Positions 41,481 through 56,224 of a stretch of DNA of 64,000 bases are shown here, one piece after another. The stretch lies in assembly GCA_036172245.1 (NCBI GenBank), contig JAYWIR010000003.1, forward strand, positions 806,001 through 870,000, written 5' to 3'. The DNA comes from Raillietiella orientalis (taxonomy: Eukaryota). A model generated the notes under the pieces. That model was not told the DNA's origin, did not search any database, and saw only the letters and a program-made list of their open reading frames with translations. A program made the position numbers and the translations under genes. The stretch's first letter is position 1. Every line of letters begins with the position of its first letter.

Positions 41481-41602
41481 CTTTCATCTGCCTCTTTGCG
41501 GACAAAGGGAAGCTCGCTGCCTTTGTCCGCCTCGTCCTGCGGCCCTTTCGTCCTTCCTTCGCTTTACCCACTGTCGGCTGAAGCGGATCAGCGGCTTTCA
41601 GC

Positions 41603-43096
41603 CAAGAGCTCAGCCACCCGTGCCAACGCGGAGACGGCAATCCTTGGACCCTCCTGGCACACCACGACCTCGTTGTGGCTCGCAGGACGAGGAGCGCTGC
41701 GATCTCCGACACCACACATCCTAGCGACGTGGAGGCCCTGCAGCTTTCCGTCTCCAGAGCCCAGCTTCCTCAAAGGTCCTTTGCCTTTCCGACGGAGGCG
41801 ATCTGCCTTTTGCCACCGTGTCATCGAGAGAAGACCTGTCAGGGGGGGATTAGGCGCATCCGCCTCAGCGGTGCCGACGAATCGCCAAGGTCACGGGGTC
41901 GCTTCGAGTTCAGCAGGTGCGGAAAGTGGAGGCATATGCCGTCTTCCGCAACGGTGGAGGTTCTTCCCCTCGGAATACCGGGAGTTCTCCTCTGGCGGAG
42001 CAATGGCGTGGATCTGAGAAGTGAGTGACACACTGCGAAGCGTGATGGCTGCTTCCGAGTCCTCTCTGATTCTGCCGATGGACGGGTGGCGCCTCGGGAT
42101 CTGGAACATTTGCCCGCTCCCTCGGAGTTGCCGGTCCTTCGAGACTGCGCTGATCTCCCCCGCATTCGCCTCGTCCCGCACCTTTCGAGCATCCACCATG
42201 AGAGCCCCCTGCGCGGGTCGCGCCTTCCGCTGCGGGTCAAAGAAGACGGGCATCCAGTGATTCTTCTGCGTGTTGCGCGTGCCAGTGGGAAAAAACGTAG
42301 GGGAAGGGGAGGAGCATGCAGCGTGGGCGGATGCGGCTGATCCGTCGGTGGAAGCGAGGGTTGAACGCCGGATGCCCCAGCGCCCGGAGCGATCGATCTC
42401 GTCCTCGAAGGGATTCCGGCAGACCTACCGGCGCCCCACAAGACCAGGTTTCGTCGCCTGGTCGACGACCCCGTCCCTCGACTCGGTGCACCTCGCTCCT
42501 CGGATCCCTCCGCTCCAGGATGACCTGGGACTTGGGCAAGCTCGCTTGCAGAGCTCTCCAGGAGGTCCGACTTTCCATCCTAGTGGCCTTTCTCTCCGAC
42601 CTCCGGACGGGGCGTGCGCCGAGGCAGGACATCCAGGGCGAGTGGCTAGCAGGAGAGTTGCCAGGAGACGGCGGACTAGAGGCAAAAGGGCGACCGCTTC
42701 TAGAGAGTCCTTTTCTCCCAGGAGAGAGTTCTCCCGGTAGGAAGGGCCTCCCACATCCCCCCTTTACTTTCCGCACCTGCCGAACTCGAAGCGACCCCGT
42801 GACCTTGGCGATTCGTCGGCACTGCTGAGGCGGATGCGCCGAATCCCCCCCCCCCCCCTACAGGTCTTCGCTCGATGACACGGCGGCAAAAGGCAGATCG
42901 CCTCCGTCGGAAAGGCAAAGGACCTTTGAGGAAGCTGGGCTCTGGAGACGGAAAGCTGCAGGGCCTCCACGTCGCTAGGATGTGTGGTGTCGGAGATCGC
43001 AGCGCTCCTCGTCCTGCGAGCCACAACGAGGTCGTAGTGTGCCAGGAGGGCCCAAGGATTGCCGTCTCCGCGTTGGCATGGGTGGCTGAGCTCTTG
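41603..43096. repeat. Inverted repeat pair, arms 41603-41927 and 42766-43096
   Basis: The arms are reverse complements; by hand I count about 8 substitutions plus a G-run length difference. The same peptide appears on opposite strands in the ORF track. Confidence 0.97.
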
Positions 43097-43900
43097 ACTG
43101 AAGGCCCTTCACCAGCGGAGCCAGATCGCTCTCCTTCGCCGCGCGTGGACTTGGGGACGCCCTCGGTTCCCTGAGGAGGAAGGAAAAGCGGTCCTCTGCT
43201 GCTGTTGACAGTCTCGTCGCCCAGCCTCCGAGCTCCCCTTTTCCAGGAACTCTTCTACTAGGTGGAACCTGCTTCACCAGCGGCTGTTATTGTCTCATCT
43301 TCCCTGAGCATCGCTCACCACCAGCAGCTTCCCGCGGTTTCAAGCGTTCTTCAAGGGTTCCAGGAGGGCTCTCAAAACGTCAGCAGCCTCTGCTACTCTC
43401 CTACCCCTTCCTCTTGTGACCTCCCTTCTGAGCGCGTAAAGCAGCTGCTCCTTTTTTTGAGAAGGGAGGGAAAACAAGGAATCTATCGAAAAGGGGAAGA
43501 TGGTGCAGGATCCAAGTGCGCTTTTTTCGGGGGTGGTCCGTCAAGTCCTTCCTTCACAACTTGTCTTCGTTACTTTGAAATCGGGATGATCTCCAGATTA
43601 CGGGAGGACTCCCTAGAAACGTTTGTCTTTCCTGCAGGACTGCCGAAGGACCACACCGTGCCGCGGTCACCATTTGACAAATTCTTGTACTGACGAGGGT
43701 GCTTTCCTGTAATCCCCTCAGTTTGGATGCTCGCAAATCCTGACGAAAAGTCCATTGGAACCAGCCGGACACTTTGGTCCGATCCTTCGAACTGAAGGAC
43801 GGGGCGATGGGGGGGCAGCCATTAGCGATCGGACGCAGAACGCAGCTCGAGCCTCCAAGCGATGTCGACAGAAAATCCGCGCACGCTCCGAGGGTCAGGT
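41930..43900 (-). mobile_element. Decayed LINE ORF2 (endonuclease, linker, RT start)
   Basis: Minus-strand order: SGDHP (~43585), linker containing the duplicated arm, RKATRME (KAPG-DG-like), GHPAFNPRF (RPISLLN-like). Confidence 0.45.
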
Positions 43901-54246: not shown

Positions 54247-56146
54247 ATGGTTATGGAAGCCTCTATCGCACAAAGTGTGGGACGAGAATTTGTTAGACAG
54301 TATTATACTGTCCTCAACAAAGAACCCTTGAAACTTCACAAGTATTATGATTGCAAAAAATTATTTGTATGTGAACTCTTCTGTTTTTAGATTTTATAGT
54401 GAACATTCAAGTTTTGTTCATGGGTGCATTCAGCGTCCATTTAGGGAAGCAAAACCGATTATAGGTCCCGAAGAGGTTTTGCAAAAGATTATCGAATTGA
54501 ACTTTTGCAACTGTCATGCTAAAATTCATCAAGTTGATTCATATGAAACATTGCAAAATGGTCTAGTCGTACAGGTAGGCAGTGTTACACCGTGATGGGA
54601 TTTGTCAAGTTTTGTTAGGTGTTAGGTGAGCTTTCTAACAATGGATGCCCCATGAGAAGGTTTGTGCAAACTTTTGTATTGGGTTTCCAGCCACCTAAAA
54701 GCTATTATGTTCACAATGATATCTTTCGTTATTTGGTAAGTTTGCAAACCGTTTTTGTTTGCATGCTTTTGGATTTAATAGGATGACATAACAGAGGAGG
54801 ATACAGATGAAGGTGAACCTTCTGATGTAGAAGAGATGGGGTCAGATGACCATCCAATATTACAGGGAGAAGGCCAGTATTTTGACCAGTTGCAGCATCA
54901 TTCAACAATGACAACTATAAATGGTCCATCCACCATTGGAGAAATGATGGGATGCCTCCCTATTCACGAGGTTTCTCCTCCACTTGAAGGAAATGGCTGT
55001 GCAAATACAGAATCAGCAGGTATTAATTTGTAGTCCAGTTTGAGTTGAATCTTCCGTATCTCTTAGACCCTGTTATAAATTTGGAAAATGAAGAACTGAT
55101 TCCCAAGCAAGAAGATGGTGGTCAGAATGCTGGAGCCAATGAAATTGAACAGAATGATGCAAGTGCAGATACCAGTGGCAATAAGCAAGATTCCACCAGT
55201 GCAGCCCCAGGTACTACTTCCAGCATGATTGGGATAAATACTAACTGATTTGAAGCATCCAATGAGCCACGTACCTTTGCAAATTTATTCAAAGGCTCAG
55301 CCACGAGCAATGGGCAGAAGAGTTGGACATCAGCCCCAACATCAGAGAATTGGGCAGGTGCTAATCGGGCTCAGTGGGCCTGTTCAACACAAAATTTGGA
55401 AAATAAAGATGTATCAAGTGGACCACCACATCGCTACCAAGGTAGACCTCGTGGTGGTGTTGTACGATCTCTTCCACGTGATCGACAGCGTCTCCCTGAG
55501 GAGAATGGTAAGTAAAGAATCTTTATTCGGCAGCAATGATGATGTAATTTGCGTCAGAGCATGAGGCTATGATCGTTTTTTGTCTGAGCTGCAATAATTC
55601 AGATGAGGCTACAAAGAAAAAATCCTTTTTGGTTTTTTAGGAGTTGCAAATGACAGTGAAAGGAGGCGTCCTAATGCCTCTGCTGGTGGTGGCACCCAGC
55701 AATACCCTGATGCTAATCAGCTGTTCATTGGCAATCTGCCACATAGCGTAGGAGAGGAAGAATTGAAAGAATTCTTCCAAAAATTTGGCACTGTTCTTGA
55801 CCTCCGCATTAATTCCAAGACCAACAAGATTGGTCCAGGAGGAACAAGAGTGCCCAACTTTGGCTTTGTTGTCTTTGAGGATCCAAGTGTGGTCCAGGTG
55901 GTTTTGGACAGCAAACCAATTTCTTACCAGAACCATCGACTGAATGTAGAGGAAAAGAAGACAAGGAACCGACTGGATGGTCCTCGTATCAGTGGCAGTG
56001 GTGATGGTGGTCGAATAGGAGCTATCGGAGGACGAGGGGCTGGAAGAGCTGGTATTTCCATGCGTGGAGGACGAGGCTCTTATACAAATCGTGGCGATAA
56101 TCGAGGAGGAGGGAATGGGAGAGGATTCGCAGCATCCCGTCGTTGA
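54247..56146 (+). CDS. G3BP: Ras GTPase-activating protein-binding protein (G3BP/Rasputin), 7 exons, 511 aa
   Basis: Exons 54247-54341, 54391-54574, 54619-54735, 54782-55019, 55067-55210, 55256-55507, 55641-56146. NTF2-like domain [24 protein letters not shown], acidic region, [30 protein letters not shown] tail. Confidence 0.97.
55530..55592 (+). ncRNA. SNORD16: Intronic box C/D snoRNA, SNORD16/snR87-like
   Basis: Terminal stem GCAGC (55530-34) with GCTGC (55588-92), box C ATGATGA (55536-42), D' CAGA (55555-58), C'-like ATGAGG (55561-66), box D CTGA (55584-87). The D' guide GTAATTTGCG complements conserved 18S rRNA CGCAAAUUAC. Confidence 0.88.
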
Positions 56147-56218
56147 ATTCATAGAACTTTTGATACTTGTGCCAGTTATCGCTCCCTCTCCAATTATTTT
56201 TCTTGTCGCCAAATCAAT

Positions 56219-56224
56219 AATAAA
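56219..56224 (+). promoter_or_regulatory. Probable polyadenylation signal of G3BP
   Basis: AATAAA about 70 nt downstream of the TGA. Confidence 0.55.

What the first reader, a model, noticed from the sequence alone, without database searches (positions are those of the whole stretch)
55508..55640. SNORD16-type C/D snoRNA nested in an intron of the stress-granule gene G3BP
Seen: five G3BP introns are 44-49 nt, the sixth is 133 nt, and the extra length holds a 63-nt unit with a 5-bp terminal stem and C, D', C' and D boxes. Known: GTAATTTGCG pairs with 18S CGCAAAUUAC, and the D'+5 rule points to the adenosine methylated by human SNORD16 (Am484) and yeast snR87 (Am436); human SNORD16 is hosted by RPL4. 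Inference: the snoRNA has moved host and shrunk, tying an rRNA-methylation guide to G3BP splicing. The box-D guide (GATCGTTTTTTGT) has no target I can assign, and the D' guide could also form 9 bp with U6 (ACGCAAAUU).
Basis: partly seen in the sequence, partly recalled or inferred. Interest (0 to 1): 0.8.

Follow-up and report, generated by a model that had tools for sequence, protein, structure and literature searches.

The report
Compact SNORD16 snoRNA in G3BP intron
The one oversized intron of this animal's G3BP gene carries a real but stripped-down copy of a well-known small nucleolar RNA (SNORD16/U16) that directs methylation of one adenosine in 18S ribosomal RNA; it is a sound catch but an ordinary kind of feature.

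Summary
G3BP has five introns of 44-49 nt and a sixth of 133 nt (55508-55640). That intron holds a 63-nt box C/D unit (55530-55592).

It is a SNORD16/U16-type snoRNA. SNORD16 is the best Rfam match, at 25.7 bits, below the gathering score of 45. I built a covariance model from 42 SNORD16-like RNAs found in metagenome contigs. It hits the 64-kb window once, exactly here, at 42.5 bits. Control sequences that share only the search pattern score 23.8 bits or less.

The D' guide forms 10 Watson-Crick pairs plus one G-U with 18S GCGCAAAUUAC. D' is CAGA.

"Shrunk" is right. The internal hairpin carrying the accessory 18S-pairing element, present in all 42 homologues and reported as conserved from yeast to human, is deleted.

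"Moved host" is only half right:
- Homologues sit in RPL4, RPS23, an RRM-protein gene and next to RPL12 and actin exons.
- One other contig also has it in a G3BP intron.

Nothing supports U6 as a target.

No small-RNA or methylation data could be obtained. Verdict: a new, minimal variant of a known snoRNA family, of modest interest.

The parts
54247..56146 (+). G3BP-like host gene, start codon to stop codon. Seven exons: 54247-54341, 54391-54574, 54619-54735, 54782-55019, 55067-55210, 55256-55507, 55641-56146.
   Evidence: Frames. The spliced CDS is 1536 nt with no internal stop. NTF2 and RRM_1 domains. Metazoan G3BP homologues.
55508..55640 (+). Intron 6: 133 nt, GT..AG, phase 1. It is the only intron longer than 49 nt.
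   Evidence: A contig of a close relative joins the flanking exons and skips 133 nt.
55530..55592 (+). Compact SNORD16-type box C/D snoRNA, 63 nt including the terminal stem.
   Evidence: Rfam SNORD16 is the best match at 25.7 bits, E 0.0073. Model R1 gives its only window hit at 55531-55592, 42.5 bits.
55530..55534 (+). 5' arm of the terminal stem (GCAGC).
   Evidence: Pairs with 55588-55592.
55536..55542 (+). C box, AUGAUGA.
55544..55554 (+). D' guide GUAAUUUGCGU, complementary to 18S GCGCAAAUUAC (10 Watson-Crick pairs plus a terminal G-U). U55550, the fifth nt upstream of D', faces the first A of AAA.
   Evidence: Identical to the guide of the Rfam SNORD16 consensus and of all 42 homologues. 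18S context. Duplex -14.2 kcal/mol. Shuffle test 2 of 1000.
55555..55558 (+). D' box, CAGA.
   Evidence: Same position as CUGA in 33 of 42 homologues; 5 of 42 also read CAGA.
55559..55568 (+). 10-nt linker that replaces the roughly 45-nt accessory hairpin domain of the long-form homologues.
   Evidence: The R1 alignment has 44 model positions replaced by 1 nt. GCCUG is invariant in the 42 homologues.
55569..55575 (+). C' box, AUGAUCG. An alternative reading, AUGAGGC at 55561-55567, is not excluded.
   Evidence: Aligned with UGAcGA of the homologues and with the Rfam SNORD16 consensus.
55576..55583 (+). 8-nt U-rich spacer before the D box, probably not a guide.
   Evidence: This region is variable among the homologues. 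Complementarity to 18S is at chance level.
55584..55587 (+). D box, CUGA.
55588..55592 (+). 3' arm of the terminal stem (GCUGC).

Best explanation
This is an intron-encoded box C/D snoRNA of the SNORD16 (U16 / yeast snR87 / plant snoR15) family in a minimal form.

Inferred mechanism, from what is known of animal intronic snoRNAs:
- It is transcribed as part of the G3BP pre-mRNA.
- Once intron 6 is spliced out and debranched, exonucleases trim the intron back to the particle that forms on the terminal stem and the C/D kink-turn (15.5K/Snu13, Nop58, Nop56, fibrillarin).

Shown from sequence: the 11-nt guide upstream of the D' box (CAGA) pairs with 18S rRNA GCGCAAAUUAC.

Inferred target: fibrillarin methylates the 2'-OH of the adenosine facing the fifth guide nucleotide upstream of D'. 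This is the first A of AAA, the site that vertebrate U16 modifies (human Am484).

The internal hairpin of longer relatives carries a second, accessory stretch complementary to the adjacent 18S sequence GGCAGCAGGC. Here it has been deleted, so the guide works, if it works, on the short primary duplex alone. The 3' half (C', 8-nt spacer, D) serves as structure and not as a second guide.
For: - Rfam's best match on the intron is SNORD16, with the guide aligned letter for letter.
- A pattern scan of metagenome contigs returned 106 stretches (105 loci held) with 117 matches, 90 of them distinct. Of these, 42 have a D box, a stem of 3 bp or more, and the accessory GCCUGCUG-like element.
- Rfam SNORD16 copies above its gathering score in 7 of the 9 such loci I tested.
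- Model R1, built from those 42 without the window copy, finds one hit in 64 kb on both strands: 55531-55592 +, 42.5 bits, spanning model positions 1-107.
- In 48 of the 105 loci given to R1, the 42 that share only the 21-nt search pattern score 23.8 bits or less. Four full-length long forms not used as seeds score 45-114 bits, a truncated one (L086) 52.9 and L091 23.3.
- The D' box lies directly after GCGU as in the homologues: CUGA in 33, CAGA in 5, others in 4 of 42.
- The 18S motif is real. 6 of 6 tested loci holding it are eukaryotic SSU rRNA, and the guide's longest pairing on 4 of 4 such 18S fragments is at that motif.
- Papers, passages read: SNORD16 guides 18S A484, and nt 14-24 pair with 18S (PMC5612246). 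Chicken U16 is listed as the counterpart of snR87 and snoR15, with an 11-nt 5' guide and host RPL4 (PMC2653536).
- The intron is in sense and is spliced out in a close relative.
Against: - No RNA-level evidence for a stable product of about 62 nt, and no methylation data. The two public runs hold only exon contigs.
- The Rfam score (25.7) is below the gathering score (45), and the whole-window Rfam scan at gathering threshold finds nothing.
- The accessory pairing element is missing. It is reported as conserved from yeast to human and as typical of snoRNAs with the shortest guides (PMC3116282, passages), so activity could be weak or lost.
- This species' own 18S could not be examined, because no genome is held.
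- The R1 score is partly circular. The seed sequences were collected with a pattern taken from this very sequence. The control bounds that share at about 24 bits.
- Assigning the target to the first A, and equating it with human A484, rests on the box-D'+5 rule, on homology of geometry and on my recalled numbering, not on a tool result.
Confidence: 0.8

Rival explanations
1. It is a decaying, non-functional remnant of a SNORD16 copy. A deletion removed the accessory hairpin and killed it, and a full-length copy elsewhere in the genome does the work.
For: All 42 seed homologues and the 4 unseeded full-length long forms keep the hairpin. No convincing short form turned up among the 90 distinct pattern matches. 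The literature stresses the accessory pairing for this short-guide family (PMC3116282, passages). The C'-D spacer is only 8 nt.
Against: Every box, the 5-bp terminal stem, the 12-nt C-D' spacing and the 11-nt guide are intact. The other five introns have been squeezed to 44-49 nt, so a useless 63-nt insert would be expected to be lost. The deletion is clean: 44 model positions are replaced by 1 nt and both flanks still align.
Confidence: 0.12
2. It is a chance resemblance: a C/D-like motif in a somewhat longer intron, with no RNA product.
For: Generic C box + D box + stem motifs occur about 0.84 times per shuffled window. The intron as a whole folds no better than shuffles (z 0.16).
Against: R1 gives 42.5 bits against 23.8 or less for controls that already share the 21-nt pattern. 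SNORD16 is the top Rfam hit out of 4227 families. The guide sits in the exact register of a known methylation guide. It is in sense orientation in the only oversized intron.
Confidence: 0.02
3. It is a snoRNA whose relevant target is U6 snRNA (ACGCAAAUU), or which has a second rRNA target through a box-D guide.
For: If C' is read as AUGAGGC, the 16-nt spacer can form 11 pairs (9 Watson-Crick + 2 G-U) with 18S GAAGACGAUCA.
Against: The U6 match is shorter than the 18S match (9 against 11 pairs). To my recollection the adenosine it would mark is not a known U6 methylation site. The D-spacer match is at chance level: 968 of 2000 shuffled spacers do as well with G-U allowed, and 742 of 1000 with Watson-Crick only. 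The D spacer is not conserved among homologues, and UGAUCG aligns as the C' box.
Confidence: 0.03
4. Its main role is in cis: snoRNP assembly on the intron tunes G3BP splicing or expression, tying ribosome production to stress-granule capacity.
For: A second, distant metazoan contig (L082) also carries a SNORD16 in the G3BP intron just upstream of the RRM exon. This is more than expected if hosts were picked at random.
Against: There is no direct evidence. Hosts of this family are otherwise very diverse. The intron phase differs between the two G3BP genes, 1 against 2, so even shared ancestry of the placement is unproven. Co-expression with a housekeeping host is the ordinary explanation.
Confidence: 0.03

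Closest known systems
SNORD16 / U16 (Rfam RF00138), vertebrate box C/D snoRNA guiding 18S Am484. Counterparts are yeast snR87 (Am436) and plant snoR15.
   Same: C box, spacing, the guide GUAAUUUGCG(U), a D' box directly after the guide, a UGAxxG-type C' box, D box CUGAGC and a terminal stem starting GC. Intronic, in sense. Same predicted target adenosine (PMC5612246 and PMC2653536, passages).
   Different: 63 nt instead of about 100-124 nt. It lacks the internal hairpin whose loop gives the extra 10-11 bp with 18S (PMC5612246 and PMC3116282, passages). It scores below Rfam's gathering threshold (25.7 against 45). D' is CAGA, not CUGA. The host is G3BP, not RPL4; RPL4 is shown for chicken in PMC2653536 and for contig L102, and is recalled for human.
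SNORD16-like RNA in metagenome contig L082, in a G3BP intron.
   Same: Same snoRNA family (Rfam SNORD16 46.4 bits). Same host gene family: the flanking exons match G3BP with hmmsearch E 4e-8 and 1e-10, and are 67-74% identical to G3BP proteins carrying NTF2+RRM. Same region of the gene, the intron just upstream of the exon that starts the RRM. D' is also CAGA.
   Different: L082 is the long form (about 104 nt, with the accessory hairpin) in a 226-nt intron. Its intron is phase 2 and 26 codons before the YPDA motif, against phase 1 and 20 codons here. The exons are only about 40% identical to the window's protein, so it comes from a distant animal.
Minimal box C/D guides: archaeal sRNAs and short snoRNAs of compact eukaryotic genomes (recalled as a class, not tested here).
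   Same: About 60 nt, a 12-nt C-D' spacer, a short D'-C' linker and no accessory domains.
   Different: This one is a recognisable orthologue of a metazoan family that elsewhere always carries the accessory domain. Its second spacer is only 8 nt, so it is probably a single guide.

Membership tests
Box C/D snoRNA | C box (RUGAUGA) near the 5' end and D box (CUGA) near the 3' end, brought together by a short terminal stem. | tested here: met
   AUGAUGA at 55536-42, CUGA at 55584-87 and a 5-bp stem 55530-34/55588-92.
Box C/D snoRNA | Internal D' and C' boxes, with a guide of 10 nt or more ending at D'. | tested here: met
   D' CAGA at 55555-58 lies where the homologues have their D' box. C' AUGAUCG aligns to UGAcGA. 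The C-D' spacer is 12 nt.
Box C/D snoRNA | A stable processed RNA bound by fibrillarin, Nop56, Nop58 and 15.5K. | not testable with these tools
   Only two runs hold any of the region, as exon contigs. No small-RNA data.
SNORD16 / U16 / snR87 family (RF00138) | A D' guide complementary to 18S ...GCGCAAAUUAC..., placing the conserved adenosine at position 5 from D'. | tested here: met
   The guide is identical to the Rfam consensus and to all 42 homologues. It forms 10 Watson-Crick pairs + 1 G-U on real 18S fragments. 2 of 1000 shuffles match this. This species' own 18S was not available.
SNORD16 / U16 / snR87 family (RF00138) | A score at or above Rfam's gathering threshold (45 bits). | tested here: not met
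   25.7 bits, E 0.0073 on 251 nt. No hit in the whole-window scan at gathering threshold. The shortfall comes from the missing internal domain: 56 consensus positions against 14 in the window.
SNORD16 / U16 / snR87 family (RF00138) | An internal hairpin carrying the accessory element (GCCUGCUG) that pairs with 18S next to the target. | tested here: not met
   Present in 42 of 42 seed homologues (by selection) and in the 4 unseeded full-length long forms. Here 44 model positions are replaced by 1 nt. I saw no GCCUG-like element in 55559-55583.
SNORD16 / U16 / snR87 family (RF00138) | Significant match to a family model over both ends, beyond what the guide alone gives. | tested here: met
   R1 gives 42.5 bits over model positions 1-107, against 23.8 bits or less for 42 control loci sharing the 21-nt C-box + guide pattern.
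SNORD16 / U16 / snR87 family (RF00138) | Host gene RPL4. This is a vertebrate habit, not a defining feature. | tested here: not met
   The host here is G3BP. Among the homologues: RPL4 in L102, RPS23 in L013 and L048, an RRM-protein gene in L002, L039 and L076 (Pfam) and in L057, L056, L009 and L011 (profile hits only), an RPL12 exon beside L091, actin beside L067, and G3BP in L082.
G3BP (host gene) | An N-terminal NTF2-like domain, a C-terminal RRM and an RGG-rich tail. | tested here: met
   NTF2 E 8e-5 and RRM_1 E 2.8e-11. The RGG-rich tail is read from the translation. 585 homologues with E of 0.001 or less; the named ones among the 120 listed are G3BP1/2 or unnamed products.

The most novel reading that the evidence does not exclude
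This is a naturally minimised SNORD16 that is still active. It would be a roughly 62-nt single-guide snoRNA that has shed the accessory 18S-pairing hairpin conserved from yeast to human. That would show the 'extra base-pairing' is dispensable for this shortest-guide family in a lineage under extreme intron compaction. In addition, its residence in the G3BP intron just upstream of the RRM exon may be inherited, since a distant animal shares it (contig L082). That would make G3BP an old invertebrate host of SNORD16, and RPL4 only one of several later homes.
Probability: 0.4. Interest if true: 0.4.

Novelty: new variant of a known kind. Interest (0 to 1): 0.3.

Why it matters
- It adds a clean natural deletion variant to a snoRNA family that is used as the textbook example of accessory guide-target pairing. 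If the 18S site is still fully methylated in this animal, the accessory element is not essential. If methylation is partial, it is a natural test of the van Nues model.
- It documents from raw data how freely this snoRNA changes host gene: six host contexts among a few dozen copies. This tempers any functional reading of the G3BP link.
- For annotation, curated Rfam thresholds miss compact orthologues in small-intron genomes. An outlier intron length is a useful flag for them.

Tried and rejected
- **Rfam at gathering threshold on the whole window:** nothing.
- **Whole-genome searches:** no genome is held for this window, and the metagenome records behind my loci are not held. So I could make no search for further SNORD16 copies, for this species' 18S, 28S or U6, or for more of the L082 contig.
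- **Public runs:** only 2 runs hold 11-13% of the sampled words. Laid at 80% likeness or better, they give exon contigs only, with no cover of the intron. That says nothing about the snoRNA. The one useful item is the exon-exon joint.
- **Fold of the intron:** no better than shuffles. This is expected for a C/D snoRNA and is not informative.
- **ESM Atlas on the last exon:** only generic RRM clusters.
- **Taxon of the window:** not resolved. The best named G3BP hits are chelicerates, an ostracod, fishes and amphioxus, up to 63% identical over the matched part. Earlier-scan notes hold nothing on this genome or sequence.
- **Numbering of the target adenosine:** none of the 18 contaminant 18S fragments whose 5' end I could locate had human or yeast numbering. 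So 'A484/A436 = first A of AAA' rests on geometry shared with the homologues and on my recall.
- **Annelid-like G3BP hosts:** weak G3BP-profile hits in seven loci turned out to be the RNP2 part of a different RRM protein. Pfam RRM_1/RRM_7 was confirmed for three of them (L002, L039, L076). I rejected them as G3BP.
- **Literature:** 'SNORD16'+'G3BP' returned 8 papers, whose titles are all cancer or DNA-damage reviews and analyses (listing only). 'snoRNA'+'rasputin'+'host gene' returned 1 unrelated review. 'snR87'/'SNORD16'/'A436' together returned 0. 'Me18S'/'host gene'/'U16' gave nothing on invertebrate hosts in the 12 listed. These searches found no report of a SNORD16 in a G3BP intron. Supplements and subscription journals were not seen.
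Full report
**1. Observation**

The region 54247-56146 (+) encodes a seven-exon gene. I read the exon-intron borders from the sequence and the reading frames. Joined by coordinates, the exons give 1536 nt, which is 511 codons plus a stop with no internal stop.

Exon 2 matches Pfam NTF2 (E 8e-5) and the last exon matches RRM_1 (E 2.8e-11). The tail is rich in RGG. A search with the last exon gives 585 proteins with E of 0.001 or less. The named ones among the 120 listed are metazoan G3BP1/2 or unnamed products, up to 63% identical over the matched part and none close.

One Logan contig from a roughly 97%-identical relative joins 55509 to 55643 and skips 133 nt. This supports the borders of intron 6, although that run is only guessed to be RNA.

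**2. The unit**

Inside intron 6, 21 nt after the 5' splice site and 48 nt before the 3' splice site, lies the following arrangement:

| Element | Sequence | Coordinates |
|---|---|---|
| Terminal stem, 5' arm | GCAGC | 55530-34 |
| Spacer | A | 55535 |
| C box | AUGAUGA | 55536-42 |
| Spacer | U | 55543 |
| D' guide | GUAAUUUGCGU | 55544-54 |
| D' box | CAGA | 55555-58 |
| Linker | 10 nt | 55559-68 |
| C' box | AUGAUCG | 55569-75 |
| Spacer | UUUUUUGU | 55576-83 |
| D box | CUGA | 55584-87 |
| Terminal stem, 3' arm | GCUGC | 55588-92 |

A bare 'C box + D box + stem of 4 or more' motif is not rare. I found 1 in the window, against a mean of 0.84 in 100 Markov shuffles. The case therefore has to rest on family-specific evidence.

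**3. Family**

At gathering thresholds Rfam finds nothing in the window. With E-value reporting on 55450-55700, the best of 21 weak matches is SNORD16 (RF00138): 25.7 bits against a gathering score of 45, E 0.0073. The C box and guide align letter for letter, and 56 internal consensus positions face 14 in the window.

To get relatives, I scanned the metagenome contigs for GCNRTGATGNNGTAATTTGCG. The scan returned 106 stretches (105 loci held) with 117 matches, 90 of them distinct. Of these, 42 have a D box, a terminal stem of 3 bp or more and a GCCUGCUG-like internal element. They are 102-116 nt long. Most of the rest lie in what look like bacterial coding sequences.

Rfam SNORD16 copies above threshold (45.4-83.2 bits) in 7 of the 9 such loci I tested.

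I aligned the 42 (A1) and built covariance model R1 without the window copy. R1 finds exactly one match in the 64-kb window on both strands: 55531-55592 +, 42.5 bits, rough E 2e-8. It spans model positions 1-107, with 44 internal positions replaced by one nucleotide.

The seeds were collected with a pattern taken from this sequence, so part of that score is circular. As a control I ran R1 on 48 of the 105 loci:
- The 42 loci that share the pattern but nothing else score 23.8 bits or less.
- Four full-length long-form copies that were not seeds score 45-114 bits.
- A truncated copy (L086) scores 52.9 and L091 scores 23.3.

The window copy therefore carries about 19 bits of independent signal from the D', C' and D boxes, the spacing and the stem.

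**4. Guide and target**

In the 42 homologues the D' box follows GCG(U/C) directly. It reads CUGA in 33, CAGA in 5, CCGA in 2, and CUAA and CGUA in 1 each. The window's CAGA at 55555-58 is therefore the D' box.

The fifth nucleotide upstream of D' is U55550. A 22-nt 18S motif occurs in contaminant contigs of prokaryote assemblies (48 loci), and 6 of 6 tested are Rfam eukaryotic SSU rRNA. The shared context is GGCAGCAGGCGCGCAAAUUACCCA.

On 4 of 4 such 18S fragments the longest pairing of the 12-nt C-D' spacer is GCGCAAAUUAC. This is 10 Watson-Crick pairs plus a terminal G-U, -14.2 kcal/mol. Only 2 of 1000 shuffled spacers reach 10 Watson-Crick pairs that include position 5. U55550 then faces the first A of AAA.

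The literature, as passages read:
- SNORD16 guides methylation of 18S A484 through its nt 14-24 (PMC5612246).
- Chicken GGgCD11 is listed as the counterpart of human U16, yeast snR87 and plant snoR15. It has an 11-nt 5' guide, and its host is RPL4 introns 1 and 3 (PMC2653536).

That the first A equals human A484 and yeast A436 follows from the geometry shared with the RPL4-hosted, vertebrate-like copy (L102) and from my recalled numbering. I could not confirm the numbering with tools.

**5. What is missing**

All 42 homologues contain a hairpin whose loop and 3' arm read UGCCUG(C/U)(U/A/G)G (GCCUG is invariant). This is complementary to 18S GGCAGCAGGC immediately 5' of the target.

It is the 'extra base-pairing' described for snR87/U16: about 10-11 further pairs, called highly conserved from yeast to human and typical of the snoRNAs with the shortest guides (PMC3116282 and PMC5612246, passages).

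The window copy has a 10-nt linker in its place, and I see no substitute element. No convincing short form appeared among the 90 distinct pattern matches. 'Shrunk' is therefore correct, and it is the one real peculiarity of this copy.

**6. The supposed box-D guide and U6**

UGAUCG aligns with the C' box UGAcGA of the homologues and of Rfam.

If C' is read instead as AUGAGGC, the 16-nt spacer can form 11 pairs (9 Watson-Crick + 2 G-U) with 18S GAAGACGAUCA. But 968 of 2000 shuffled spacers do as well, and 742 of 1000 with Watson-Crick pairs only. This is chance level.

The U6 option offers 9 pairs. I could not fetch U6. From memory, the adenosine it would mark is not a known U6 methylation site. 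Nothing favours it over the 11-pair 18S duplex.

**7. Host gene**

I searched six-frame ORFs of the loci with a G3BP profile, with tblastn using the G3BP homologues and with Pfam. The Pfam run covered 148 ORFs of 13 loci. I dropped three loci that duplicate the same contigs.

| Locus | Host context |
|---|---|
| L102 | Two copies flank a Ribosomal_L4 exon (E 5e-8) |
| L013, L048 | Copies beside Ribosomal S12/S23 exons (E 2e-16, 2e-18) |
| L002, L039, L076 (Pfam RRM); L057, L056, L009, L011 (profile hits only) | An RRM-protein gene that is not G3BP. By my reading it looks hnRNP A/B-D-like; this was not tested. |
| L091 | Next to a Ribosomal_L11 exon. This copy is doubtful (R1 23.3 bits, no Rfam call). 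|
| L067 | Upstream of actin coding exons |
| L082 | The snoRNA (Rfam SNORD16, 46.4 bits) lies in a 226-nt intron between two G3BP exons |

For L082, the flanking exons match the profile with E 4e-8 and 1e-10 and are 67-74% identical to proteins with NTF2+RRM.

Host change is thus routine for this family, and G3BP is not unique to the window. The L082 intron also lies just upstream of the exon that begins the RRM. However, it is phase 2 and 26 codons before the YPDA motif, against phase 1 and 20 codons here. Shared ancestry of the placement is therefore possible but unproven.

Nothing points to a special functional tie with stress granules. Release from a spliced host intron is the normal route for animal snoRNAs (established knowledge).

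**8. Verdict**

This is a genuine SNORD16-type box C/D snoRNA in minimal form. It most likely guides 2'-O-methylation of the 18S adenosine equivalent to human A484.

Shown:
- The sequence architecture.
- Family homology.
- Complementarity of the guide to 18S.
- The intronic, sense position.
- Splicing of the intron in a close relative.

Inferred:
- Processing to a stable RNA.
- Assembly of the snoRNP.
- Activity without the accessory pairing.

The main rival is a dead remnant of a longer copy. It cannot be excluded without the genome and RNA data, but the intact boxes in a gene whose other introns are 44-49 nt argue for function.

Novelty is modest: a new, truncated variant of a well-known family, in a host that is unusual but not unique.

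Noticed in passing
window 1-64000: The window has a strong GC mosaic. Islands of 34-46% GC (1-8 kb, 22-28 kb, 52-56 kb) alternate with 14-20-kb blocks of 60-66% GC. There are no tandem repeats. None of 115 ORFs tested outside G3BP has a Pfam match, so G3BP is the only recognisable gene in 64 kb. This is odd for a genome with 45-nt introns. The taxon is not resolved.
   Followed up: partly
window 41593-43106: An inverted repeat pair: arms 41593-41848 / 42851-43106 (256 nt, 96% complementary) and 41842-41932 / 42761-42851 (91 nt, 95%). Together these make about 340-nt arms around roughly 830 nt in a GC-rich block. It may be a foldback or TIR-type element.
   Followed up: no
L013, L046, L048, L052, L064, L102 (metagenome contigs): SNORD16-like copies occur two or more per contig, 0.4-1.3 kb apart on the same strand. 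This is consistent with copies in successive introns of one host gene: RPS23 in L013 and L048, RPL4 in L102.
   Followed up: partly
L067:1421-1523 (-) and L067:39-1267 (-): A SNORD16-like RNA (R1 45 bits, no Rfam call at gathering) lies just upstream of actin coding exons on the same strand (Pfam Actin E 1.6e-127). It may sit in a 5'-UTR intron.
   Followed up: no
L106-L153 (prokaryote genome assemblies): At least 48 contigs filed under bacterial or archaeal assemblies carry the eukaryotic 18S motif, and 6 of 6 tested are eukaryotic SSU rRNA (854-934 bits). This is eukaryotic rDNA contamination in those assemblies.
   Followed up: partly
window 55568-55583: If C' is read as AUGAGGC, the 16-nt spacer before the D box can pair (9 Watson-Crick + 2 G-U) with the conserved 18S stretch GAAGACGAUCA. 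Shuffles show this is at chance level for such a U-rich spacer.
   Followed up: yes
window 56214-56224: An AATAAA signal lies about 70 nt after the G3BP stop codon. It is followed by an A/T-rich stretch, and from about 56.5 kb the sequence turns GC-rich. It is the likely 3' end of the host transcript.
   Followed up: no
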